Source of the DNA: Escherichia phage vB_EcoS_HZ_ZJUN2
Strand: one strand, 5' to 3'
Sequence record: PP216084
Length of the DNA stretch: 64,000 nt
Positions 539-58,960 of the stretch are shown piece by piece (positions within the stretch are counted from its first letter, which is position 1; each line of letters starts with the position of its first letter). The position numbers were made by a program, and so were the translations under genes. The notes under the pieces are model-generated. The model did not search any database and had not been told where the DNA came from. It worked only from the letters and a program-made list of their open reading frames with translations.

Positions 539-682
539 TGGGGGCGCTCCCTGATAGTTGCGCCCGTGATTATTATAGTAGTGGGCAACCGTTACGCTTT
601 GCCCACTCCCGCCACTCATCTTGCTGTCTAGACTTGCGACGGCGTACTAAAAACCGCTTATACCAGTGATTAAACCATCGTT

Positions 683-886
683 TCATAGATCCCCCTCGGG
701 TAGTCGATGCGTGATCTTCTCCTCTTCCCCGTAGGAATCGACTAAATGCTGATAATAACCATCATGATCATAAATCACCTTATCATACTCACCACGCTCA
801 ACCGCTTGCCGGTTTTCCGGCGTATCGGGCACATAAAAAACGTCAACCATTGTACTGATTTTGGTTACAACAATTTTATTGCTCAT
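683..886 (-). CDS. Hypothetical protein, 67 aa
   Basis: ORF in track; acidic, no recognisable motif; last gene of minus-strand block. Confidence 0.5.
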   Translation of the reverse strand: MSNKIVVTKISTMVDVFYVPDTPENRQAVERGEYDKVIYDHDGYYQHLVDSYGEEEKITHRLPEGDL

Positions 887-996
887 AATAACGCCCTAGT
901 AAATATATTTTTGCCAATAGCGGCGAACGTTATCGCCACCAGCGGAATCATTAGCTGCCTTACTATTACCAACGAAAATATATAATCTCATTAGTA

Positions 997-1158
997 TTAT
1001 TTTCCCCGCATTAATTTATACATAACTAACATCCCACAAAACTGACCTAAAATAGTGCAGACAACAAGTGATAACACAATATTGCCTATGGTGTTATAAG
1101 TAACTACACCAACAATAAGGGATAATGCATACCCTAGCAGGGCAATATAAACAGCCAT
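997..1158 (-). CDS. Small hydrophobic membrane protein, 53 aa (below ORF-track cutoff)
   Basis: Hand translation MAVYIALLGYALSLIVGVVTYNTIGNIVLSLVVCTILGQFCGMLVMYKLMRGK; ATG 10 nt downstream of the stop of 1168-1509; AGGT upstream. Confidence 0.4.
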   Translation of the reverse strand: MAVYIALLGYALSLIVGVVTYNTIGNIVLSLVVCTILGQFCGMLVMYKLMRGK

Positions 1159-1167
1159 ATTATTTAC

Positions 1168-1509
1168 CTATTTTCGAAACGCTGTTTCAATACTATCAGC
1201 CGTGGATTGAATATACGCGCCTTTCATGATCAGGCGCTCGGTGCATATCTTGCGAAAAATATTAATAAAATCATCCTCATTTTCTGCAATTAATGCCTCA
1301 CCCATAACCTGAACGTCGCAAGATGCAAAGGTCAAAAATTGAAATGCTAGTTCACGGGCAACAACCGCATTAATCTTATAATGCGCCTTTCCCTCGTAAA
1401 TATTAACAACGCCCTTATAATCAGGCGAAAGCTGATTTAAGTAGTTTGCTAATAATCCCGGGCGGCAATTAGTAACAAAGCGATTGCCCTCGTAAATGAT
1501 CATTTGCAT
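1168..1509 (-). CDS. Hypothetical protein, 113 aa
   Basis: ORF in track; start ATG overlaps stop of upstream small ORF (ATGCAAATGA). Confidence 0.6.
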   Translation of the reverse strand: MQMIIYEGNRFVTNCRPGLLANYLNQLSPDYKGVVNIYEGKAHYKINAVVARELAFQFLTFASCDVQVMGEALIAENEDDFINIFRKICTERLIMKGAYIQSTADSIETAFRK

Positions 1510-1631
1510 AACCTCCCGATCAGATAGCCTGATAATAACATAAAGATCCCCAACGAAATGGGGTCATTCTTAAATAAGGTGGCGATAAAACCGCCAGCCA
1601 TTGCAAGGAGAACAACAAAAACGCTTTTCAT
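1500..1631 (-). CDS. Small two-helix membrane peptide, 43 aa (below ORF-track cutoff)
   Basis: Hand translation MKSVFVVLLAMAGGFIATLFKNDPISLGIFMLLSGYLIGRLCK; start ATG overlaps TGA stop of 1628-1840 (ATGA coupling). Confidence 0.4.
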   Translation of the reverse strand: MKSVFVVLLAMAGGFIATLFKNDPISLGIFMLLSGYLIGRLCK

Positions 1632-1840
1632 AGTACCCCACGAAACGCAGCGTAAAAGGTGGCAAAATGTTTAACTGTTTCAGCTATCACGTTGCCGCGC
1701 TTATCAAATTTTTTCTCAGTAACACGAAAGGCATTTTTATTACGTGCTACATATTCGATTTTACAGTCTGGACGCTCGAACGTGTTAACGTCCACCAGCT
1801 TAAAGCCTTTGGAACGAGCAAGGGAAACATTACGAATCAT
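1628..1840 (-). CDS. Hypothetical basic protein, 70 aa
   Basis: ORF in track; AAAGGAGAATAA RBS immediately upstream. Confidence 0.55.
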   Translation of the reverse strand: MIRNVSLARSKGFKLVDVNTFERPDCKIEYVARNKNAFRVTEKKFDKRGNVIAETVKHFATFYAAFRGVL

Positions 1841-1842
1841 TT

Positions 1843-1992
1843 TTATTCTCCTTTACTAGTCATGCAGCCCAGCAGATAAGAAAATGCAGCGATACCCGCG
1901 CCGATAATAACCGCGTGAACATCGAAAGCTATTGCAAACAAAGATAAAATAGCGCCCAAGATACCCGCCAGAATAGCTCGAAAAATAACCAT
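1843..1992 (-). CDS. Small membrane protein, 49 aa (below ORF-track cutoff)
   Basis: Hand translation MVIFRAILAGILGAILSLFAIAFDVHAVIIGAGIAAFSYLLGCMTSKGE; AGGAGA RBS upstream; its 3' end holds the RBS of the next gene. Confidence 0.4.
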   Translation of the reverse strand: MVIFRAILAGILGAILSLFAIAFDVHAVIIGAGIAAFSYLLGCMTSKGE

Positions 1993-2039
1993 TTTTATTC
2001 TCCTAGTTAGTGGGGGCGAAAGTAACGCCCCGTTATTAA

Positions 2040-2270
2040 TTACATTAAAACGATTTTGGCGGCTTGTTTTTTGGTGCAGTGTTCCGCTTTCAGGGTATCC
2101 AGCAAAAAGCCCGCCGTTTGCTGATCGATTTGATCATTATCATAAAGCGCCTGAATGGTGGTGTAAGTTTTAGCAATGCCGTATTCTTGCACCATTTCTT
2201 GAATGATCCAGCGATTTGATACCCAGCCTTTTCCAGTGAAAAGAGCGTCAGAAGAAGAAAAAGCAACCAT
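2040..2270 (-). CDS. Hypothetical protein, 76 aa
   Basis: ORF in track; followed on the minus strand by GC hairpin 2013-2031. Confidence 0.55.
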   Translation of the reverse strand: MVAFSSSDALFTGKGWVSNRWIIQEMVQEYGIAKTYTTIQALYDNDQIDQQTAGFLLDTLKAEHCTKKQAAKIVLM

Positions 2271-2331
2271 TATAAGCCTCCAAAATTTTTTGGGAAATTT
2301 TCAACCGTCCTCGAACGGTGTAAAGGCATTA

Positions 2332-2362
2332 TAACAAAAAGGCCGCCATAATCGGCGACCTT
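2332..2362 (-). terminator. Hairpin plus U-run, candidate intrinsic terminator after the 331 aa gene
   Basis: aaggccgcc-ataatc-ggcgacctt stem-loop at 2339-2362 with A-run 2334-2340 on the plus strand (U-run on minus). Confidence 0.45.
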
Positions 2363-2385
2363 TACAAAACTTTACATTAGACTAA

Positions 2386-3381
2386 TTATTGCTCGTTTTC
2401 GGTGTTAGTGGTAAAAGTAGAAATATCAATGCCCTTCACCATTTCATCGATCATTTCAGCAATGTTAAAACTTTGTACCATTTCTAGCATTGCCGCTTCC
2501 ATAGCTGCACCCGCTACCGCTTTCGCCTTCTGGTTACTCGGGGCGTACTGGTCAACCGCTACGCTCAGCAGGTTGGCAATGACTACTCGACCAATCGGCG
2601 TATCAATATAACCTTTAATCATGAACGGTGCTTTTTTAGCCGCTACTTTCGTGATTTGAGTCAATGCAATTTTACCCGCTTCCAGTTTTGCAGCATTTAC
2701 AACGGCGGACTTATTAGCGGCAACGATATTAGCGATCTTGGTCATAGTATTTTTTCCTTTGTTTTCAGTGATTTGAGTGTTAACGCTTTGAGTGTTAGAA
2801 TTTACAGTATGTTTTTCTATATTGTCAATAGGCTGATCCTCATCTTTCCAGAAAGAAAAGCCCGCTCTTTCGATATCCCCATCATATACGTATGGGTATA
2901 CTTCCGACGGTAACAAAAAATTGCCATCATCATCAAAGGCCATTACAGCCGCCAGACGATACCCGTCACCGATTGACCGATTCCAGCCAACGGATAAATA
3001 ACGCCAAAATGAATCAAGAAAATTTTCTACATCATAAAGATCCTTATCATAAGGCTCATAATTTTCTATTGAAAAAACTTCTAAGCCCGCCCCCGCATCA
3101 TAGGCTTTTACTGTGCTACCTTTTACAATTATAAAATCAGTATCCGGCCCCCTACTAGTAAGCAAGTGATTATCTCGATTATATAAGATAATCGTTGCCC
3201 CTTGCTTATATAAGGGTAGAAAGCTACGCATATCATAGGCGTCGAAATCATCAAAAAAATTCTGGTGAATATCTTCGACTTTGTTAACAAAGTGCTTAAT
3301 GCTGGTTGTTCTGCTACCGTCCAGCAGGTTGCGCAGCGCACCTTTTAAGACGGTTGCGTTATCTGGTTTATATAGCCTCAT
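2386..3381 (-). CDS. Hypothetical two-domain protein, 331 aa, pre-early-like region
   Basis: Long ORF with even codon usage; N-terminal acidic domain and C-terminal Ala/Lys-rich helical domain; no motif recognised. Confidence 0.7.
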   Translation of the reverse strand: MRLYKPDNATVLKGALRNLLDGSRTTSIKHFVNKVEDIHQNFFDDFDAYDMRSFLPLYKQGATIILYNRDNHLLTSRGPDTDFIIVKGSTVKAYDAGAGLEVFSIENYEPYDKDLYDVENFLDSFWRYLSVGWNRSIGDGYRLAAVMAFDDDGNFLLPSEVYPYVYDGDIERAGFSFWKDEDQPIDNIEKHTVNSNTQSVNTQITENKGKNTMTKIANIVAANKSAVVNAAKLEAGKIALTQITKVAAKKAPFMIKGYIDTPIGRVVIANLLSVAVDQYAPSNQKAKAVAGAAMEAAMLEMVQSFNIAEMIDEMVKGIDISTFTTNTENEQ

Positions 3382-4318: not shown

Positions 4319-4584
4319 TGAAAAATTTACTTGCCTATCTGCTATGTTTTGTGGTATTCGCGCGCCCGTTTCCTTTAAACTCGGGCAATCGCCGGACGTG
4401 TTGCCTTCTTTACATTTCTTTACAAAAATAAGGTTGCTCCTTTTTCGTTGTTTGTTATTATTTATCTCGTAGGGCGGCAATGACGAACTACACGGCGGGA
4501 AGTTTACCGCCGCGCTCTTTAAAAATTGGGTATATCTTAAAGCCTATCGGCGGTAAACTTATTACATTATAAGGAATCGACGAT

Positions 4585-4788
4585 ATGAAACAAACTTTAT
4601 TGATCACTGGTAAACCTATTAAGGCACTGGACAGCAGAACAAAAAATTTGTTGACAGTAGCGCAAAGATCGGTAAAATATCGATTTAAGCAGTACAAGAA
4701 AGGCCGCCAGCAAGGTTTGGAAATGATCTGGCGAAATATTATGATCGACCTGAAGGAAAATCATAAAAAACTGCAAAAAACAGCTTGA
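4585..4788 (+). CDS. Hypothetical small basic protein, 67 aa
   Basis: AAGGAA 8 nt upstream of ATG; Lys/Arg-rich; overlapped by antisense ORFs judged spurious. Confidence 0.35.
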   Translation: MKQTLLITGKPIKALDSRTKNLLTVAQRSVKYRFKQYKKGRQQGLEMIWRNIMIDLKENHKKLQKTA

Positions 4789-5017
4789 CACCATAGCCGA
4801 TAGGCTTTAAGATGTACCCAGTTCGATAAGAGCGATAACTTGATAAAATCTGACGGCCGGTACTTGCCATAATGTGCCCCGCCCCCTAACTGGGATATAG
4901 CGGCCCGCGTGGAGTTCCTTAAATTGATTTTATAATGGCGAGTGGATTTTTTCTTATTATCTGCTAGAAAGTAGCAGATAATGCGGAACAATCCACAAAT
5001 AACTTGGAGTTTATACC

Positions 5018-5269
5018 ATGAAAAACGTTATTAATGCGCCGAAAGTTGGTCAATCCGTTTTTATTCCTTTCGTTACTAAAACGGACGAATTAACCGGAAA
5101 AGCCGAACGTATTAAAGGCGCGGCGCTCATGCCGTTCGATACAATCGATGCGGTATACGCTGAAAATGAGCGCAGTAACAACGGAAAAACCGTTTTTAGC
5201 GTTCGCGTTAAATCTGGCGACGTTGTAAAGGTTGTTCAACGCAACGAAAAATGGGAAGCTGTATTATAA
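5018..5269 (+). CDS. Hypothetical pre-early protein, 83 aa
   Basis: Conserved initiation context cttGGAGtttatacc-ATG; followed by hairpin 5285-5310. Confidence 0.5.
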   Translation: MKNVINAPKVGQSVFIPFVTKTDELTGKAERIKGAALMPFDTIDAVYAENERSNNGKTVFSVRVKSGDVVKVVQRNEKWEAVL

Positions 5270-5284
5270 ATTAGTGTTAACTTT

Positions 5285-5310
5285 ATATGCCCCGAACTAC
5301 TGGGGCATAT
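5285..5310 (+). terminator. GC-rich palindromic hairpin after a pre-early cassette
   Basis: atatgcccc-gaactac-tggggcatat. Confidence 0.4.
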
Positions 5311-5370
5311 AACGATTAACATTATGTTAATCATTTAATCCCTTAAATTAAATTAATTGGAGTTTATATC

Positions 5371-5787
5371 ATGACTAACGTTAAAACCGAAAAAGCCGCA
5401 AAATTTTCTTGGAATGAAGAAAACACTCAGCAGGCTGTTACCATGTATCAGCAGTTAATCAACGAAAACGGGCTAGAATTCGCAAATAGCGACGGCTTGA
5501 AAGAGATCGCAAAGGCAGTAGGCGCGGCTTCTCCCGTATCCGTTCGGTCAAAATTGACCAGCGCGAAAGCCTATCAGAAAAGCGACAAGCCGCGCAAAGT
5601 TGGCGGCGGTAGTTCAATCCGCAAGGCTCATTATGTGCGAGTGATTGCAAAACATGCCATCGATTCCGGCATTATCAAGGACGCCGATGATCTGGCAAGC
5701 CTTGAAAGCGCGAAATTAGAAACGTTGGACGTCGTGGCGCAACTATTGGGCGTTGCCGATGAAGTAAAACAAGCCGCAGGCGAATAA
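5371..5787 (+). CDS. Putative DNA-binding protein, 138 aa (possible A2-like candidate)
   Basis: Conserved RBS context; carries the motif EIAKAVGAASPVSVRSKLTSAKAY also seen in 52881-53648 and 57438-57848; size fits a ~15 kDa pre-early protein. Confidence 0.5.
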   Translation: MTNVKTEKAAKFSWNEENTQQAVTMYQQLINENGLEFANSDGLKEIAKAVGAASPVSVRSKLTSAKAYQKSDKPRKVGGGSSIRKAHYVRVIAKHAIDSGIIKDADDLASLESAKLETLDVVAQLLGVADEVKQAAGE

Positions 5788-5794
5788 ATTTAAT

Positions 5795-5816
5795 TAGCGG
5801 GGAATACTCCCCGCTA
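5795..5816 (+). terminator. GC-rich palindromic hairpin after a pre-early cassette
   Basis: tagcgggg-aatact-ccccgcta. Confidence 0.4.
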
Positions 5817-5844
5817 TAATTTCCCTTTAATTGGAGTTATTAAA

Positions 5845-6042
5845 ATGATTTTCTTTCCTACTGAATCGCTCATTCTAGGCTTATTTATTATGGCGGCCTC
5901 GCTATTGTTCGCATATTTTCAAAATGACTTAGATTCATATTATTTTAAACGCAAATCTAAGTTAGCAAAGCGGTTAGGTCTGATTTGTTTTATTGCCGCC
6001 GTTGTTTGTGGTGTTAGTTCTAGCCTGATGCCTATTAGTTGA
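5845..6042 (+). CDS. Small membrane protein, 65 aa, two predicted TM helices
   Basis: Conserved RBS context ccctttaattGGAGtt; hydrophobic segments LILGLFIMAASLLFAY and LGLICFIAAVVCGV. Confidence 0.45.
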   Translation: MIFFPTESLILGLFIMAASLLFAYFQNDLDSYYFKRKSKLAKRLGLICFIAAVVCGVSSSLMPIS

Positions 6043-6054
6043 ATGTTGCAAATT

Positions 6055-6122
6055 ATAACGCCTATTATTCAAGGCGTTATATCTGGCAATATTTGCCAAT
6101 AACAAACGTTTTTTTTTTTTTT
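6055..6122 (+). terminator. Two hairpins followed by a T14 run
   Basis: ataacgcc...ggcgttat (6055-6080), tggcaatatttgccaa (6084-6099), T-run 6107-6122. Confidence 0.5.
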
Positions 6123-6147
6123 AATCCCTTTAATGGAGTTTATTATT

Positions 6148-7818
6148 ATGATTATTTCCGCAGAAAAACAAACCGTTATCCTGAAGCTGGCCGCTGACTT
6201 TAATTTTTATGGTAAACGTCTGCGCGCCACCCGGCTGGAAGTCTGCGACGATATATCAAAAGCGGTTTACGATACTGCAAAACACTCTACCGCGATTTGT
6301 GATTGGTTAGAAGCAAATAAACCAGCGAAACCGAAAACAGCGAAAGCGGTGAAAGCCATTAAAAACGACGAGCGCCCCGAAGCGGCTGGAATTATTTCTA
6401 GCACGGTGGAACAGTGGGAAGTAAAACAAGGTAAACGTTTTATTATTACATCGATTCAGAATAATACTTTCCCGCATAAAAACTTTTTAGCCTCGCTTGA
6501 GCAATATGCCCAATTTATTGGCGCTGATTTGCTTGTTTCTAAGTATATTTATAATAAAAACGGCTTTCAAAATGGTGAAGGCGCGGACGGTGTAAAATAT
6601 GATTCCGCGTTTGATAAATATATTTGCAGTAAAAACGTGTTTTTAAATAACCGCCGTTTTGCTTTCATGGCTGAAATTAATGTTTTGCCCACCGCAGATT
6701 ATCCGCTATCTGGATTCGCAGAAACTGCAACGGCGCTTAATCTGGAAGGTCTGGCAATTGGTCACGCTAAAATCACCGCCGAAAGCGTTCCAGCTTTAAA
6801 AGGTGAAGTGGTGCGCCGCATGTATTCCACCGGAACGGCAACGCTCAAAAACTACATTCAGCAGAAAGCAGGACAGAAAGCGGAGGCGCTGCATAATTTC
6901 GGGGCGCTGATTGTCGAGTTCGACGAAGACGGTGAGTTTTTTGTGCGCCAGCTTGAAACGATGGACGAAAGCGGCATGTTTTATGATCTGAATATCTGCG
7001 CCACTCCCGCCGGATGTTTTGAAACGTCGGGGCATGTTTTAGGTTTACAGTATGGCGACGTGCACGCTGAAAAATTAGATGAGGAGTGCGCCGCAGCGTC
7101 ATGGGGTCATGGTGATACTTATGGGCTAGTGGATATTCTTAAACCAAAATATCAATTCGTCCATGACGTTCACGATTTTACATCACGCAACCATCACAAC
7201 CGCGCTTCCGGTGTATTCCTAGCAAAACAATACGCCGCCGGACGTGATAAGGTTATGGATGATCTTATCGATACGGGGCGCGTACTGGAAGCAATGGAGC
7301 GCGATTTCTCGCAAACAATCATTGTTGAATCGAATCACGATCTGGCGTTATCTCGTTGGCTTGATGATCGAAATGCTAACATCAAAGACGACCCAGCAAA
7401 CGCCGAATTATATCACCGCCTGAATGCGGCTATCTATGCAGCTATCGCAAATCATGACGACACTTTCAACGTGCTAGATTATGCGCTGCGTAATGTTGCA
7501 GGCTGCGAGTTTAACGCCATTTTTTTAACGACTGATCAATCTTTTAAGATTGCAGGCATTGAGTGCGGTGTACACGGTCACAACGGCATTAACGGCAGCC
7601 GTGGAAACCCAAAACAATTTAAGAAATTGGGCAAATTAAACACCGGACACACCCACACCGCCAGCATTTACGGCGGCGTATACACGGCGGGCGTCGCTGG
7701 TTCCCTCGATATGGGCTACAACGTTGGCGCGTCAAGCTGGACGCAAACGCATTTAATTACATACGCAAACGGGCAACGCACTTTAATTGACTTTAAGAAC
7801 GGCAAATTTTTCGCATAA
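6148..7818 (+). CDS. A1: A1-like pre-early protein, 556 aa, calcineurin-like metallophosphatase (candidate DNase)
   Basis: Start moved to ATG at 6148 (the ATGGAG at 6133 is the RBS); motifs GDVHA, GHGD, ESNHD, GVHGHNG, TGHTHT; length equals recalled T5 A1. Confidence 0.6.
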   Translation: MIISAEKQTVILKLAADFNFYGKRLRATRLEVCDDISKAVYDTAKHSTAICDWLEANKPAKPKTAKAVKAIKNDERPEAAGIISSTVEQWEVKQGKRFIITSIQNNTFPHKNFLASLEQYAQFIGADLLVSKYIYNKNGFQNGEGADGVKYDSAFDKYICSKNVFLNNRRFAFMAEINVLPTADYPLSGFAETATALNLEGLAIGHAKITAESVPALKGEVVRRMYSTGTATLKNYIQQKAGQKAEALHNFGALIVEFDEDGEFFVRQLETMDESGMFYDLNICATPAGCFETSGHVLGLQYGDVHAEKLDEECAAASWGHGDTYGLVDILKPKYQFVHDVHDFTSRNHHNRASGVFLAKQYAAGRDKVMDDLIDTGRVLEAMERDFSQTIIVESNHDLALSRWLDDRNANIKDDPANAELYHRLNAAIYAAIANHDDTFNVLDYALRNVAGCEFNAIFLTTDQSFKIAGIECGVHGHNGINGSRGNPKQFKKLGKLNTGHTHTASIYGGVYTAGVAGSLDMGYNVGASSWTQTHLITYANGQRTLIDFKNGKFFA

Positions 7819-7828
7819 TTAAATTTAT

Positions 7829-7850
7829 AAGCGGGGTATATACCCCGCTT
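7829..7850 (+). terminator. Perfect 22 bp palindromic hairpin after A1-like gene
   Basis: aagcggggtata-taccccgctt. Confidence 0.45.
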
Positions 7851-7883
7851 ATGCCCCTTATTAAATTAATTGGAGTTATAAAC

Positions 7884-8276
7884 ATGAAAAAGCAAAATAT
7901 TCCATTCGATCGCGCTCAATCTTCCATTGTTCTGGTTTATTCAAATGGTGAGCGTTACCACGTCGAGGCCGGTCACGTTGTTGATGATTTAATCGAGTTT
8001 AATGAGGCGCTACAGATCACGACTTTCGCCTATACGCAAGGCCGCGCTAGTAGTCACATAAAGGCCGCAGGCGTTTATGTTGATACGGTGAAGCAGGAAA
8101 CGATTATCATCGACGCCGTAAAAGCTGGCCTAGCGTTTGCAGTTGTCGCACCTTGTCCCGCTTGCCTTGATGATCAGCTATCGAGTGCAAAGGTCTACAT
8201 TTGCGCGGGTATTCGTTCCCATGTATCCGGCGAAGATATTAGTTTTATCGCTGATGCGCTGGCTTATGGTCTTTGA
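7884..8276 (+). CDS. Hypothetical pre-early protein, 130 aa
   Basis: Start set to ATG at 7884 downstream of conserved ttaattGGAGtt; followed by hairpin 8290-8316. Confidence 0.5.
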   Translation: MKKQNIPFDRAQSSIVLVYSNGERYHVEAGHVVDDLIEFNEALQITTFAYTQGRASSHIKAAGVYVDTVKQETIIIDAVKAGLAFAVVAPCPACLDDQLSSAKVYICAGIRSHVSGEDISFIADALAYGL

Positions 8277-8289
8277 TAGTTGATTTATT

Positions 8290-8316
8290 ATTGCCCGCTG
8301 ATAAATAGCGGGCAAT
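8290..8316 (+). terminator. GC-rich hairpin after pre-early cassette
   Basis: attgcccgct-gataaat-agcgggcaat. Confidence 0.4.
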
Positions 8317-8356
8317 GCTGGATAAACTAAATCCCTTTAATGGAGAACGTAACAAA

Positions 8357-9091
8357 ATGAATCAAGTTAAAACGAATATTACCCGTAATTTTCCGCATGT
8401 TTCCCGCGTCATGATTTGGGATCTTGATGGCACTATCGTTAATTCATTCCATCGCGTAGCGCCTTGCTTTGATAGTGAGGGTAATCTAGATTTAAATAAG
8501 TATAAAAATGAGGCGTGCAAACATGATTTAATAATGCAAGATACACTCCTACCGCTTGTTACCTATATGCGCCAATGTATGAATGATGTTAATACGTTAA
8601 ACATTATTTGCACCGCTCGATTAATGAGCAAGTCGGACTATTATTATTTGCGCAAACAAGGATTGCGCGGGCGTGGGGATAGTAATATCCGTGTATTTTC
8701 CCGCGATACACTGCACAAATATTTTGAAGCTGATAAGGTTAGCGAAATATACCACAGCAAGGACGCAGTTTATAAAAGCTACTACTTTGAGTTATTTAAG
8801 CAGTTATATCCGAACGCTGATTTCACGATGATCGACGACCATAAAGGAGTATTGGCGGCGGCGGCATCATATGGATTTAAAACTCTGGACGCGCAAGCCG
8901 TTAATGATATTCTATCGATTGGGGTCACATTGATAGGTGAAACCTTTATCGACGAATCTCTTGAGGATGATAATGATTATCAGTTCCTAGCAGATCGCTT
9001 GCAATTATGTTGGGAAAGTATGACAGAAGAAGAACGCGCAGAATATAGTTGCAGCCCGCAACAATATATTGAGAAATTAAAAGTTGCGTAA
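8357..9091 (+). CDS. dmp: HAD-superfamily phosphatase, 244 aa, probable 5'-deoxyribonucleotidase (Dmp-like)
   Basis: Start set to ATG at 8357 after GGAGAACG RBS; HAD motif I DLDGT, motif II CTAR, C-terminal acidic DD; pre-early location. Confidence 0.5.
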   Translation: MNQVKTNITRNFPHVSRVMIWDLDGTIVNSFHRVAPCFDSEGNLDLNKYKNEACKHDLIMQDTLLPLVTYMRQCMNDVNTLNIICTARLMSKSDYYYLRKQGLRGRGDSNIRVFSRDTLHKYFEADKVSEIYHSKDAVYKSYYFELFKQLYPNADFTMIDDHKGVLAAAASYGFKTLDAQAVNDILSIGVTLIGETFIDESLEDDNDYQFLADRLQLCWESMTEEERAEYSCSPQQYIEKLKVA

Positions 9092-9108
9092 TAATTAAAG
9101 TTGAAATT

Positions 9109-9145
9109 GTTTCACCTTGCAATTAAAATGGTTGCAGGGTGAAAC
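9109..9145. terminator. 14 bp-arm inverted repeat hairpin between convergent transcription units
   Basis: gtttcaccttgcaa-ttaaaatgg-ttgcagggtgaaac (one mismatch). Confidence 0.45.
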
Positions 9146-9256
9146 AGTTAGCATGGTAATAGTAACGGGGGTGGCGGTTAGCAGACTAAGTATTCTCCCC
9201 CAACCCACTGCACCCACCCACGCGTACGTAATCCAAAGAATTTGGCAAAAGTCAAA

Positions 9257-9502
9257 TTAGTGCATAGAATGGTCATCAAACCTGTGTTCTGGTCTAAACT
9301 CACGGAATCTCTTCCGCGACGCCCGAGAACCATCATTCCACTCCAGCTCAAACTCCGCACGTTTCTCATCGAACTTCCGCTCCCTTTCCGCAATCTCCCG
9401 CGATACTTCCGCAATATATTTACGATGCCTGTCGATAGCCGCAGTCATTCCGAAAACTCCCGCGAGTATCCCGGTAATAAAAGCAATTACAATACTAAAC
9501 AT
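9257..9502 (-). CDS. Hypothetical membrane-anchored protein, 81 aa
   Basis: N-terminal TM helix then charged coiled segment; same strand as llp; overlapped by plus-strand ORF judged less likely. Confidence 0.4.
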   Translation of the reverse strand: MFSIVIAFITGILAGVFGMTAAIDRHRKYIAEVSREIAERERKFDEKRAEFELEWNDGSRASRKRFREFRPEHRFDDHSMH

Positions 9503-9605
9503 TATTTATATTCCCGCAACTTACGTTCAATACGAGCTAAGTGGTTATCCAAGACACATTGCCCTAGAATTACCACAACTAATAAAACAATAATTATTAC
9601 TCCCA

Positions 9606-9791
9606 TTAAATCCACCCCGCCATAGCTGCTAACCAAAAGCCTACGAAGACTAGGAATAATACAAAACCAAATCCATAAATATTAATCCACGCTTCATACA
9701 CTTCCCCGCGTCTGTTCTTTCTTTTGTTGCCGTTTGACATGTTTTTCATACTCCCGTAAATGTGGTATCTGGGATATTCTAGAAATTGCAC
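9606..9791 (-). CDS. Hypothetical small protein, 61 aa, C-terminal TM helix (uncertain)
   Basis: GTG start; overlaps alternative ORF 9694-9879 in another frame; cannot be resolved by eye. Confidence 0.25.
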   Translation of the reverse strand: MQFLEYPRYHIYGSMKNMSNGNKRKNRRGEVYEAWINIYGFGFVLFLVFVGFWLAAMAGWI

Positions 9792-9981
9792 GAACCATTA
9801 TAACTGTTCCTATGAGATCCATCATTTCATCAAACCCAGATTCTTCTAGAAGAAATGATGTTCCCATTACATCTTCCATAGTGTCTTGTATGACGTCCTG
9901 AATGATTTCATTAATCGCACTGTGAACTGCTTTGCCCTAGGAGTCATCTCAAGTGGCATTGGTTCCTGGAAGGGCTTCTCC

Positions 9982-10215
9982 TCAGAAAACTCCTTCACAT
10001 GTATTCCCCTCGGTAAAGTAGCTTACTGGAGCCCAGAAAGATCCATAGGCCATGATTGGTGCCACCAGGAACATATCCCCTTTTCTATCAAAAACATTAG
10101 CCTTATATTTCACATGATCTTGTACATAGTAGGCCTCACATTTAATATCTTTAGGCCCAAAAGTAGAGCAAGCCGAAAGAAGTACCACTGCCATAGCTAA
10201 AAATAATTTTTTCAT
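9982..10215 (-). CDS. llp: Lytic-conversion lipoprotein Llp-like, 77 aa precursor
   Basis: Signal peptide with lipobox LLSAC (Cys17), mature 61 aa; divergent from the receptor-binding gene as recalled for T5. Confidence 0.7.
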   Translation of the reverse strand: MKKLFLAMAVVLLSACSTFGPKDIKCEAYYVQDHVKYKANVFDRKGDMFLVAPIMAYGSFWAPVSYFTEGNTCEGVF

Positions 10216-27147: not shown

Positions 27148-27174
27148 ATTGTTATTAAAGAGGAGAAATTAACT

Positions 27175-27789
27175 ATGAGATTACCAGACCCATACACGAA
27201 TCCAGAACTTTCAGGATTAGGATTCGAAAGTGTTAACCTGATTGATAATGACCCAGTAATTCGTGATGAGTTACCAAATGGTAAAGTTAACGAAGTTAAG
27301 GTATCCGCTCAATACTGGGGTATAAATATTTCTTATCCAGAATTATTTCCAGATGAATATAGTGTTCTAGATGCTTTTATTCTAGAATACAAAAGGACTG
27401 GTGGTTATATAGATGTTATATTACCTCAATACGAAGCTTTTAGAGTTAGAGGTAATACTAGCCTAGTAAATATACCTGCTGGACAGAAGGGTTCTAATAT
27501 AACTATGGATACAAAAGGACTTCTCACAGGTATTCCAAAACCGGGGGATCTATTTAAGCTATCTAACCATCCAAAAGTATATAAAATAACATCATTCAAT
27601 AAATCAGGCAATACGTGGTCTATAAACTTATACCCTGATTTATTTATAACTACTACTGGGGCTGAGAAACCAGTGTTTAACGGAATACTATTTAGAACAA
27701 AACTCATGAATGGTGATGCTTTCGGATCTACATTAAATAATAACGGAACATATTCCGGCATCTCATTAAATTTACGGGAAAGTTTATGA
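27175..27789 (+). CDS. Distal tail protein pb9-like, 204 aa
   Basis: Position directly after tape measure; length equals recalled T5 pb9. Confidence 0.6.
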   Translation: MRLPDPYTNPELSGLGFESVNLIDNDPVIRDELPNGKVNEVKVSAQYWGINISYPELFPDEYSVLDAFILEYKRTGGYIDVILPQYEAFRVRGNTSLVNIPAGQKGSNITMDTKGLLTGIPKPGDLFKLSNHPKVYKITSFNKSGNTWSINLYPDLFITTTGAEKPVFNGILFRTKLMNGDAFGSTLNNNGTYSGISLNLRESL

Positions 27790-58900: not shown

Positions 58901-58931
58901 ATTTAAACTCCTCTCTCAAATTTATGAATCT

Positions 58932-58960
58932 ATTATACAGAAATTTTTTGCACTATGCAA
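58932..58960 (-). promoter_or_regulatory. Strong T5 early promoter, near-identical to PN25 core and leader
   Basis: Reverse complement reads AAATTTATTTGCAT...TTTCTGTATAATAGATTCATAAATTTGAGAGAGGAGTTT, matching my recollection of PN25. Confidence 0.7.

What the first reader, a model, noticed from the sequence alone, without database searches (positions are those of the whole stretch)
4993..9150. Modular pre-early cassettes: conserved initiation region plus GC palindrome after every ORF
Six consecutive plus-strand genes (5018, 5371, 5845, 6148, 7884, 8357) are each preceded by a near-identical (T)TAAT(T)GGAGTT element and each followed by a GC-rich palindromic hairpin (5285-5310, 5795-5816, 6055-6099, 7829-7850, 8290-8316, 9109-9145). 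The uniform structure suggests cassette-like gene exchange or coordinated translational and attenuation control of host-takeover genes.
Basis: seen in the sequence. Interest (0 to 1): 0.55.

Follow-up and report, generated by a model that had tools for sequence, protein, structure and literature searches.

The report
Stem-loop plus leader modules, T5 pre-early operon
In this T5-like phage, every gene of the first operon expressed after infection is separated from the next by a conserved RNA stem-loop and an unusually conserved ribosome-binding leader. The layout is real, shared across the phage family and only partly documented, and it most likely acts on the mRNA rather than stopping transcription.

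Summary
The window is a T5-like phage. Bases 4585-9212 are the dmp/A1/A2 pre-early operon, driven by two consensus promoters (4651, 4785).

- **Layout.** All six genes have a T(T)GGAG Shine-Dalgarno (SD) site 8-11 nt before ATG. Five have TAAT(T)GGAG and an upstream (A/T)TCCCTT(T)A tract (0/65 and 1/65 of other window genes). Every spacer holds a stem-loop (z -3.9 to -7.4).
- **Conservation.** Relatives keep the structures, not the sequences: compensatory pairs, loops flipped to their reverse complement, and unrelated hairpins swapped in at the same slot.
- **RNA level.** Stem mismatches are G·U on the sense strand (24) and never A·C (0) in the core stems, so selection acts on the sense RNA.
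- **Not terminators or promoters.** The hairpins lack the U-tract of this genome's canonical terminators. Spacers carry no convincing promoter. Published Bas33 RNA-seq abundance is non-monotonic along the operon.
- **Leader.** The CCC...GGAG leader persists in Pectobacterium, Klebsiella and Proteus relatives (A1 42-74% identical).
- **Cassette turnover.** The A1/002 slot is polymorphic, and one deletion joins two leader repeats.

Best reading: intercistronic RNA stabiliser/processing/insulator hairpins plus a specialised translation leader, a promoter-less analogue of T4 PeSL cassettes and T7 early RNase III sites. Three hairpins are already annotated in T5 record AY587007.

The parts
4651..4678 (+). 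Promoter TTGACA-16-TAAAAT inside hdi; by position the equivalent of T5 P_H22 / T5P2
   Evidence: 11/12 match. Position compared with the T5 records.
4785..4813 (+). Promoter TTGACA-17-TAAGAT; by position the equivalent of T5 P_D/E20 / T5P1. It starts the roughly 200-nt 5' UTR of the operon.
4956..4982 (+). 5' UTR stem-loop ATTATCTGCTA-GAAAG-TAGCAGATAAT immediately upstream of the 007 leader
   Evidence: dG -20.2, z -6.5.
4990..5017 (+). Leader of 007: AATCCACAAATAACTTGGAGTTTATACC. The degenerate member; T5 has ATCCCCCTTAATAAACTGGAGTT here.
5018..5269 (+). Gene 007 (DUF7177)
5272..5324 (+). Hairpin H1. Core TTATATGCCCC-GAACTACT-GGGGCATATAA at 5283-5312; the single-sequence MFE extends it with a lower stem.
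   Evidence: z -7.4; 100% paired in 19 distinct relatives, and one pair shows AU/CG/GC/UA. The lower stem is not in the consensus structure.
5314..5332 (.). Palindrome GATTAACAT-T-ATGTTAATC: 7 of its 8 tested pairs never vary in 19 distinct Tequintavirus sequences, and it is unique in the window
5338..5370 (+). Leader of A2: ATCCCTTAAATTAAATTAATTGGAGTTTATATC (long-spacer type)
5371..5787 (+). Gene A2 (DNA-binding protein, needed for second-step transfer)
5795..5816 (+). Hairpin H2 TAGCGGGGA-ATAC-TCCCCGCTA; this is 'palindrome B' of T5 record AY587007
   Evidence: z -3.9; C-G to U-A compensatory change; an unrelated hairpin allele in about half of the relatives.
5820..5844 (+). Leader of 005: TTTCCCTTTAATTGGAGTTATTAAA
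5845..6042 (+). Gene 005 (small membrane protein)
6043..6098 (+). Hairpin H3: interrupted helix of about 20 bp (upper stem 6054-6081). It overlaps an alternative small hairpin TGGCAA-TATT-TGCCA at 6084-6098.
   Evidence: z -4.2. (consensus of 20 pairs, 3 covarying).
6123..6147 (+). Leader of A1: AATCCCTTTAATGGAGTTTATTATT
6148..7818 (+). Gene A1
7827..7852 (+). Hairpin H4 ATAAGCGGGGT-ATAT-ACCCCGCTTAT in the polymorphic A1/002 slot
   Evidence: z -4.4.
7853..7883 (+). Leader of 002: GCCCCTTATTAAATTAATTGGAGTTATAAAC
7884..8276 (+). Gene 002
8277..8329 (+). Hairpin H5: interrupted helix of about 19 bp (core 8290-8316). The core is 'palindrome A' of AY587007.
   Evidence: z -6.4. GC/AU covariation; the outer stem is held by sense-strand G·U pairs..
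8330..8356 (+). Leader of dmp: AATCCCTTTAATGGAGAACGTAACAAA
8357..9091 (+). Gene dmp (5'-deoxyribonucleotidase)
9108..9146 (.). Hairpin H6 (15 bp; the MFE extends it to about 20 bp), between the dmp stop and the terminal-repeat end (about 9212). Annotated as a 'putative rho-independent terminator' in AY587007. It faces convergent minus-strand genes at 9257-10215.
   Evidence: z -6.8; C-G to U·G to U-A series; a second unrelated allele.

Best explanation
The region is the leftward pre-early operon of a T5-like phage. It is transcribed as one polycistronic mRNA from two strong sigma-70 promoters. Each spacer contains two elements that act on the RNA.

1. **A stable stem-loop placed 3-13 nt after the stop codon.** Only the structure is under selection. 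It most likely marks and protects mRNA segments: as a barrier to 3'-to-5' exonucleases, and for the roughly 20-bp interrupted helices (H3, H5, H6 and possibly H1) perhaps as an endonucleolytic processing site. It would also lock up flanking sequence so that the next ribosome-binding region stays unstructured.

2. **An A/U-rich leader, (A/T)TCCCTT(T)A...TAAT(T)GGAG(TT), 8-11 nt before ATG.** This would give every cistron independent, uniformly strong initiation without translational coupling.

The hairpins are not efficient terminators, and the spacers are not promoters. Because the modules repeat short identical A/T-rich stretches, they are also sites where genes and hairpins are gained, lost or swapped.

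**Shown here:** the structures, their RNA-level sense-strand selection, the absence of terminator and promoter signatures, family-wide conservation, and indels at module boundaries.

**Inferred:** the stabilising, processing and insulating roles, and the role of the CCC tract.
For: **Identity and promoters.**. A 2026 preprint treats dmp, A1 and A2 as one likely operon with two characterised promoters.

**Hairpins are more stable than chance.**

**Structure, not sequence, is conserved.**
- H1 is 100% paired in 19 distinct sequences, with four pair types at one position.
- H3 and H5 consensus helices of 19-20 bp show covariation.
- C-G to U·G to U-A series occur in H6, H5 and H2.
- Unrelated hairpins occupy the same slot.
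- Loops are reverse-complemented between relatives (H1 GAACTACT vs AGTAGTTC; H5 GATAAAT vs ATTTATC).

**Selection acts on the sense RNA.**
- Among 98 distinct hairpin variants, core-stem transition mismatches are 24 G·U and 0 A·C on the sense strand.
- The mutational control at 4-fold sites is only 70 C/T vs 41 A/G.
- The H5 outer stem contains invariant U·G pairs.

**Not terminators.**
- No + strand terminator call at any of the six hairpins.
- Canonical terminators elsewhere in the window have T-runs.
- Bas33 RNA-seq abundance runs 007 12199, A2 5207, 005 1171, A1 4925, 003 1143, 002 4425, dmp 2218.

**Not promoters.** Only two weak consensus matches overlap the spacers.

**Leader.**
- It is operon-specific in the window.
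- Parts of it are invariant in Tequintaviruses, whereas 4-fold sites have pi about 0.3 and only 17-33% of them are invariant in five of the six genes (56% in 007).
- It is present in My1, Klebsiella and Proteus phages.
Against: - No transcript-end, half-life or translation data exist for these sites, so the function is inferred.
- H2 and H4 stems (9-11 bp) are too short for classical RNase III substrates, so a single mechanism may not cover all six.
- Gene 005 is followed by a good hairpin yet has low abundance in Bas33, which does not fit simple 3' protection.
- A few A·C mismatches do occur in the outer, weaker stems (H3 3 cells, H5 1 cell).
- The second pre-early operon (573-3381, minus strand) lacks the modules. 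The design is therefore operon-specific, not class-wide.
- The role of the CCC tract is unexplained. Its possible pairing with GGAG is only 3-4 bp.
Confidence: 0.55

Rival explanations
1. The hairpins are leaky intrinsic terminators (attenuators). They would set a descending expression gradient along the operon, as the stem-loops of T4 PeSL cassettes do.
For: - GC-rich stems sit directly after each stop codon.
- H6 is annotated as a putative rho-independent terminator in AY587007.
- H2 is followed by the moderately U-rich UAAUUUCCCUUU.
- In Bas33 the first gene is the most abundant and dmp is among the lower ones.
- PeSL stem-loops were shown to attenuate.
Against: - None of the six hairpins passes the hairpin-plus-T-run scan on the + strand. 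Bona fide terminators in the same window have T5-T6 runs.
- Abundance in Bas33 rises again after hairpins (005 1171 to A1 4925; 003 1143 to 002 4425), which termination cannot produce.
- Essential A1 lies behind three hairpins and has no promoter of its own.
Confidence: 0.15
2. The extended helices are RNase III processing sites. They would cut the polycistronic pre-early RNA into monocistronic mRNAs that end in a protective hairpin, as in the T7 early region. This overlaps with the best explanation as one possible sub-mechanism.
For: - H3, H5 and H6, and H1 in the single-sequence fold, form interrupted helices of about 19-22 bp with small internal loops.
- They lie between the cistrons of a host-polymerase early operon.
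- Non-monotonic segment abundance in Bas33 fits processing followed by differential decay.
Against: - H2 and H4 have only 9-11 bp.
- The RNAalifold consensus does not support the lower stem of H1.
- I found no literature on RNase III processing of T5 RNA.
- No Rfam match.
Confidence: 0.2
3. The palindromes act on DNA, not RNA. They would be cruciforms or protein-binding sites on the first-step-transfer DNA, for example for A2, for nicking or for recombination. The leader motif would then be a DNA site.
For: - Perfect palindromes occur in a DNA segment with known cis-acting repeats.
- Loop inversions show that the DNA palindromes are recombinationally active.
- A2 is a DNA-binding protein.
- The GATTAACATTATGTTAATC palindrome is conserved in sequence without covariation.
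Against: - The sense-strand G·U vs A·C asymmetry (24:0 in core stems) and the G·U-rich outer stems would be mismatches in DNA or in antisense RNA.
- The sequences are replaced by unrelated hairpins, so no sequence-specific protein site is conserved.
- The leader motif always sits at SD distance from a start codon.
Confidence: 0.05
4. There is nothing special: a generic Shine-Dalgarno site in AT-rich spacers, plus chance or merely inherited palindromes.
For: - GGAG is a common SD core.
- Spacers are 31% GC, so A/T-rich flanks are expected.
- Close relatives share the sequences by descent.
Against: - 0/65 other genes of the same genome have TAAT(T)GGAG, and 1/65 has CCCTT.
- The leader persists in phages whose A1 is only 42-74% identical.
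- Hairpin z-scores, covariation and hairpin replacement.
Confidence: 0.03

Closest known systems
PeSL (promoter-early stem-loop) cassettes of T4-type phages (Arbiol et al. 2010, PMC2839356; Comeau et al. 2014, PMC4122927)
   Same: - The whole intergenic spacer is a conserved module: a G/C stem-loop plus SD plus ATG.
- The module is repeated before consecutive small early genes.
- Recombination between modules explains gene gain and loss. Here the L012/L010 deletion is joined at the TTTATTAAAT repeat.
   Different: - PeSLs contain a strong sigma-70 promoter with an AT-rich UP region, and each gene is its own transcription unit. Here the spacers have no convincing promoter, and the genes form one operon.
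- PeSL stem-loops were shown to terminate. These lack U-tracts.
- Mini-circles were not tested here.
RNase III processing sites of the T7 early region (R0.3-R1.3; from my own knowledge)
   Same: - Host-polymerase early operon behind very strong promoters.
- A structured element in every intercistronic spacer.
- Interrupted helices of about 20 bp (H3, H5, H6).
- Products would end in a protective 3' hairpin.
   Different: - Cleavage is untested.
- Two of the six elements are simple 9-11 bp hairpins.
- No sequence similarity.
Intercistronic stabiliser hairpins (REP elements in malEFG; the puf operon; CUUCGG hairpins of T4; from my own knowledge)
   Same: - GC-rich stem-loops without a U-tract lie between cistrons.
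- They are thought to block 3' exonucleases and set differential segment stability.
- Loop and sequence are free to vary.
   Different: - They are not members of the REP sequence family.
- Loops are not UUCG.
- Here every cistron has one, and each is coupled to a conserved leader.
Palindromes A and B and the 'putative rho-independent terminator' in T5 record AY587007 (Wang et al. 2005)
   Same: By position these are the same elements as H5, H2 and H6.
   Different: - Only three of the six are annotated, as bare sequence features.
- The leader motif, the one-per-spacer rule, the RNA-level evidence and the family-wide conservation are not in the records I could read.
- The Wang 2005 text and the Davison 2015 review were not available to me.
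T7 gene 10 'epsilon' translational enhancer UUAACUUUA (Olins and Rangwala 1989; from my own knowledge)
   Same: A pyrimidine/A-U element a few nucleotides upstream of a phage SD. It shares the hexamer CUUUAA with CCCUUUAAU.
   Different: The proposed 16S pairing of epsilon does not transfer to the T5 motif, by my manual comparison with the 16S sequence recalled from memory. This is a lead only.

Membership tests
Intrinsic (rho-independent) terminator | GC-rich hairpin immediately followed by a U-tract on the transcribed strand | tested here: not met
   none of the six hairpins is called on the + strand. H2 and H4 are called only on the - strand, with weak tails; canonical terminators elsewhere in the window carry T5-T6 runs.
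Intrinsic (rho-independent) terminator | Transcripts end at the site | not testable with these tools
   Indirect only. Bas33 RNA-seq abundance is non-monotonic along the operon.
PeSL cassette | Sigma-70-like early promoter (-35, -10, AT-rich UP) inside each intergenic module | tested here: not met
   only two weak + strand matches overlap a spacer, 6039-6068 (9/12) and 9101-9129 (10/12). My manual check of the TATAAT at 5815 found no -35 element.
PeSL cassette | Stable G/C stem-loop plus SD plus ATG filling the spacer, repeated before consecutive genes | tested here: met
PeSL cassette | Recombination between modules shuffles the flanked ORFs (mini-circles, indels at module boundaries) | tested here: inconclusive
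   One deletion junction lies at a shared leader repeat, and the A1/002 slot is polymorphic. Mini-circles are not testable here.
T7-type RNase III processing site | About two helical turns of dsRNA, often with an internal loop, between cistrons | tested here: inconclusive
   Met by H3, H5 and H6. H1 meets it only in the single-sequence MFE (vs 70). Not met by H2 and H4 (9-11 bp).
T7-type RNase III processing site | Cleavage by RNase III | not testable with these tools
   No data found.
Intercistronic mRNA stabiliser hairpin | Structure selected at the RNA level on the sense transcript, with free sequence and loop and no U-tract | tested here: met
   covariation; G·U 24 vs A·C 0 in core stems; loop flips, hairpin replacement.
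Intercistronic mRNA stabiliser hairpin | The upstream segment is stabilised against 3' exonucleases | not testable with these tools
   The only hint is non-monotonic abundance in Bas33. The hairpin-less 003 segment is low, but 005, which has a hairpin, is low too.
Known Rfam RNA family | Match to a curated covariance model | tested here: not met
   only one chance-level miRNA hit (E = 0.23, 26 bits against a gathering score of 100).

The most novel reading that the evidence does not exclude
The (A/T)TCCCUU(U)A...GGAG leader would be a dedicated RNA operator or enhancer. It would be recognised either by a conserved phage pre-early protein that co-evolves with it, or by a special ribosome-recruitment route. 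This would give operon-wide post-transcriptional control of A1/A2/dmp expression, functionally comparable to T4 RegA/RegB acting on early ribosome-binding sites.

The co-evolution idea rests on the SD flanks being uniform within a lineage but different between lineages: TTGGAGTT in T5-likes and CTGGAGAA in Klebsiella phages.

The stem-loop plus leader modules would at the same time be a promoter-less counterpart of PeSLs, driving gene turnover in the first-step-transfer DNA.
Probability: 0.15. Interest if true: 0.65.

Novelty: new variant of a known kind. Interest (0 to 1): 0.45.

Why it matters
T5 is a classic model phage. Its pre-early operon (A1, A2, dmp) carries out host takeover and second-step DNA transfer from a single 10-kb DNA end. 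How expression of these genes is balanced and then shut off is still unknown.

A family-wide design that acts on the RNA, with one stem-loop and one conserved leader per cistron, gives concrete sites that can be mutated to test:
- mRNA processing and stability;
- translation control;
- gene turnover in this operon.

It also explains why these genes are spaced out while the rest of the genome is tightly packed. The leader may be useful as a portable strong translation-initiation element.

Tried and rejected
- **Internal promoters (PeSL-type).** The scan and my manual inspection of the spacers found none convincing.
- **Canonical terminators.** Rejected because the hairpins lack U-tracts.
- **Rfam families.** None matched.
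- **DNA-level palindrome function.** Disfavoured by the G·U asymmetry.
- **A class-wide pre-early signal.** The other pre-early operon (573-3381, minus strand) lacks the motif, apart from one TTTCCCAAAAAATTTTGGAGG leader.
- **Pairing of CCCUUUAAU with 16S rRNA, as proposed for T7 epsilon.** I found no complementary site, but the 16S sequence was recalled from memory and was not checked with a tool.
- **CCC as an anti-SD.** RNAalifold predicts only a 4-bp UCCC/GGaGA helix with no covariation. That is too weak to conclude anything.
- **Literature.**
  - The Davison 2015 review (PMC4743489) is not held.
  - The Wang 2005 text is not held.
  - Searches for T5 transcript-end mapping found nothing.
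- **Tool note.** Two Python calls failed because several loci are stored in one file. This was resolved.


Full report
**What the region is.** The window is a T5-like phage (Tequintavirus), about 91% identical at the DNA level to phages HK6 and SP01 over 4993-9150.

In reverse orientation relative to the T5 reference, bases 4585-9212 are the leftward pre-early operon of the terminal repeat:
- hdi: 4585-4788
- 007: 5018-5269
- A2: 5371-5787
- 005: 5845-6042
- A1: 6148-7818
- 002: 7884-8276
- dmp: 8357-9091

The terminal-repeat end lies about 120 nt after dmp. Two near-consensus sigma-70 promoters (TTGACA-16-TAAAAT at 4651; TTGACA-17-TAAGAT at 4785) sit where T5 records annotate P_H22/T5P2 and P_D/E20/T5P1. 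A 2026 preprint describes dmp, A1 and A2 as likely one operon, with these as the experimentally characterised promoters.

**Check of the observation.** All six starts are preceded by T(T)GGAG 8-11 nt before ATG.
- Five of six have TAAT(T)GGAG and five of six have GGAGTT.
Five of six leaders carry (A/T)TCCCTT(T)A 6-16 nt before GGAG; 007 has ATCCACA in the window but ATCCCCCTTAA in T5.
- Against 65 other genes called in the same window, TAAT(T)GGAG is 5/6 vs 0/65, and CCCTT is 5/6 vs 1/65 (Fisher p = 5e-7 and 3e-6).
- Each spacer, and the 5' UTR, holds a strong stem-loop at the stated coordinates: dG -16.7 to -28.1 kcal/mol, z -3.9 to -7.4, and 0 of 200 shuffles as stable.
- The rest of the genome is organised differently. 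Genes overlap or are under 30 nt apart, and strong hairpins occur only at operon ends, where they are followed by T-runs.

**Evidence from relatives.** I compared T5, 40 IMG/VR loci of Tequintavirus-like and Klebsiella T5-like phages, and annotated records of Pectobacterium phage My1, a Klebsiella phage, Proteus phage 1 and two Vibrio phages.

A hairpin is kept in nearly every spacer of the Tequintavirus-like loci, but its sequence is free.
- H1 is 100% paired in 19 distinct sequences. One position shows AU, CG, GC and UA.
- H2, H5 and H6 show C-G to U·G to U-A series.
- H3 and H5 have consensus interrupted helices of 19-20 bp with covariation.
- At the A2/005, 002/dmp and post-dmp slots, unrelated hairpins replace each other.
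- Loops are exact reverse complements in different phages (H1 GAACTACT vs AGTAGTTC; H5 GATAAAT vs ATTTATC). Perfect palindromes therefore flip, and the loop carries no strand-specific information.

**RNA or DNA?** I scored internal mismatches in 98 distinct hairpin variants.
- Transition mismatches are 24 G·U and 0 A·C on the sense strand. By my inspection these are at least 12 independent events.
- At 4-fold degenerate sites of the flanking genes, C/T and A/G polymorphisms are 70 and 41. Mutation bias therefore cannot explain the asymmetry: about 0.63^12 = 0.004 even for 12 events.
- The outer stem of H5 is held by invariant or alternating U·G pairs.
- A few A·C cells do occur in the weak outer stems (H3 three, H5 one).

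Selection therefore acts on the structure of the sense transcript. It does not act on a DNA cruciform or on an antisense RNA.

**What the hairpins are not.**
- None of the six is followed by a U-tract on the + strand. The scan calls H2 and H4 only on the minus strand, with poor tails.
- The spacers contain no convincing promoter. T5 RefSeq annotates none there.
- No Rfam family matches.
- In a published RNA-seq table for the Tequintavirus Bas33 at 20 min, I read the unlabelled abundance column as CLC 'max group mean'. The values are: hdi 1232, 007 12199, A2 5207, 005 1171, A1 4925, 003 1143, 002 4425, dmp 2218 (PMC13250531 supplement).

Abundance that rises again downstream cannot come from serial termination without internal promoters. 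It is what processing plus differential segment stability would give. The 003 segment has no hairpin after it and is low, which fits. The 005 segment has a hairpin and is also low, which does not fit. I treat these data as suggestive only.

**The leader.**
- In Tequintaviruses, stretches such as ATCCCTTAAATTAA (A2) and most of ATCCCTTTAATGGAG (A1, dmp) are invariant or nearly so. By contrast, 4-fold sites in five of the six flanking genes have pairwise diversity of about 0.3 and only 17-33% invariant sites (007: 0.16 and 56%).
- The same design is found in distant relatives:
  - My1: TTCCCAATTAATTTGGAG, ATCCCTTAATTGGAG.
  - Klebsiella phages: ATCCCATTAACTGGAGAA, AACCCCTAAATAAATAAGCTGGAGAA.
  - Proteus phage 1, whose A1 is only 42% identical: TTTTCCCTTTAATTAGGAGTT.
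  - Vibrio phage JSF12 has a looser AACCC...GAGG version.
  - The second Vibrio phage (D332) shows hairpins in three of its spacers but no clear CCC leader.
- Spacing classes are kept at orthologous genes: A2 long, A1 and dmp short. This argues for vertical inheritance under selection.
- The SD flanks are uniform within a lineage and differ between lineages: TTGGAGTT in T5-likes and CTGGAGAA in Klebsiella phages. That fits either a lineage-specific optimum or partner, or homogenisation between modules.
- The function of the CCC tract is unresolved. It can form only a 3-4 bp helix with GGAG.

**Cassette behaviour.** The A1/002 slot has at least four states:
- hairpin only (the window);
- a T5.003-type ORF of 85-96 aa with its own hairpin and SD;
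- a 169-aa HNH endonuclease ORF;
- a remnant in L012 and L010, in which the 003 hairpin is fused to the 002 leader exactly at the TTTATTAAAT repeat present in both leaders.

The remnant is a footprint of recombination between modules. All four combinations of the two A2/005 hairpin alleles and the two post-dmp alleles exist, so the operon recombines freely. This resembles PeSL-mediated shuffling in T4-type phages (PMC2839356), but these modules lack the defining promoter.

**Prior knowledge.** T5 record AY587007 already annotates 'palindrome A' (H5), 'palindrome B' (H2) and a 'putative rho-independent terminator' (H6). I found no description of:
- the one-per-spacer rule;
- the leader;
- the RNA-level evidence;
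- the family-wide conservation.

Two key papers (Wang 2005 and Davison 2015) were not readable here.

The best-supported mechanism is post-transcriptional. Intercistronic RNA stem-loops define and protect mRNA segments and insulate an unstructured, specialised translation leader. A side effect is that the modules are recombination-prone.
- Attenuation is unlikely.
- RNase III processing remains possible for the four long helices.
- A dedicated trans-acting factor for the leader is the most novel reading that the evidence does not exclude.

I rate it a new variant of known kinds (PeSL cassettes, T7 early processing sites, stabiliser hairpins), of moderate interest.

Noticed in passing
window 5314-5332 (with 5272-5281): Palindrome GATTAACAT-T-ATGTTAATC upstream of A2. 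Seven of its eight tested pairs never vary in 19 distinct Tequintavirus sequences, it shows no covariation, and it is unique in the window. Its 5' half can pair instead with the upstream TAGTGTTAAC to extend hairpin H1. It could be a protein operator or an RNA switch.
   Followed up: partly
window 5294-5301 and 8300-8306, against loci L014, L012 and others: Hairpin loops are exact reverse complements between relatives (GAACTACT vs AGTAGTTC; GATAAAT vs ATTTATC). Whole palindromes therefore invert (flip) during evolution.
   Followed up: partly
L007 7460-8050 (also L019, L027, L039): A 169-aa HNH endonuclease ORF (Pfam HNH_3) is inserted between A1 and 002. Its SD (TAATTGGAGGATT) is locked in a perfect 13-bp hairpin with AATCCTCCAATTA, which resembles the AATCCC leader motif. 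This suggests translational repression of the homing endonuclease.
   Followed up: partly
window 6109-6122: A homopolymer run of 14 T between hairpin H3 and the A1 leader. Relatives mostly have 5-6 T here, and some lack the run. It is either a length polymorphism or an assembly artefact.
   Followed up: no
window 9150-9215: The stretch between hairpin H6 and the terminal-repeat end (GGGGGTGGCGGTTAGCAGACTAAGTATTCTCCCCCAACCC) comes in two unrelated conserved alleles among relatives (the other is GGGCGGTAATGAGACTCATTCTCATCTGGGGGG). Both are G-run...C-run or G-run...G-run structures near the genome terminus, so they may be related to end formation.
   Followed up: no
window 4500-4830: The divergent promoter region carries long inverted repeats: aagtttaccgccg/cggcggtaaactt, and gggtatatcttaaagcctatcggc/gccgataggctttaagatgtaccc. 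These correspond to inverted repeat A/A' in AY587007.
   Followed up: no
window 27154-27177 (+) and about 58901-58935 (-): The leader ATTAAAGAGGAGAAATTAACTATG looks identical to the 'RBSII' site of pQE/pDS expression vectors. TAATAGATTCATAAATTTGAGAGAGGAGTTTAAATATG looks like the transcribed region of promoter P_N25. Both identifications are from memory and were not checked.
   Followed up: no
L006 (Vibrio phage JSF12) 3350-5660: The spacers of the homologous operon carry repeated palindromes (TTTACACTGTAAATCA; GTGTTTCACATGAAACAC) in addition to hairpins. These may be operator sites that are absent from the enterobacterial phages.
   Followed up: no
L039-L042, L004, L044-L046: 007/A2 spacer: In some lineages the 007/A2 spacer is 230-340 nt instead of about 100 nt. 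It contains extra palindromes (TATATATTCTAGCTAGAATATATA) of unknown role.
   Followed up: no
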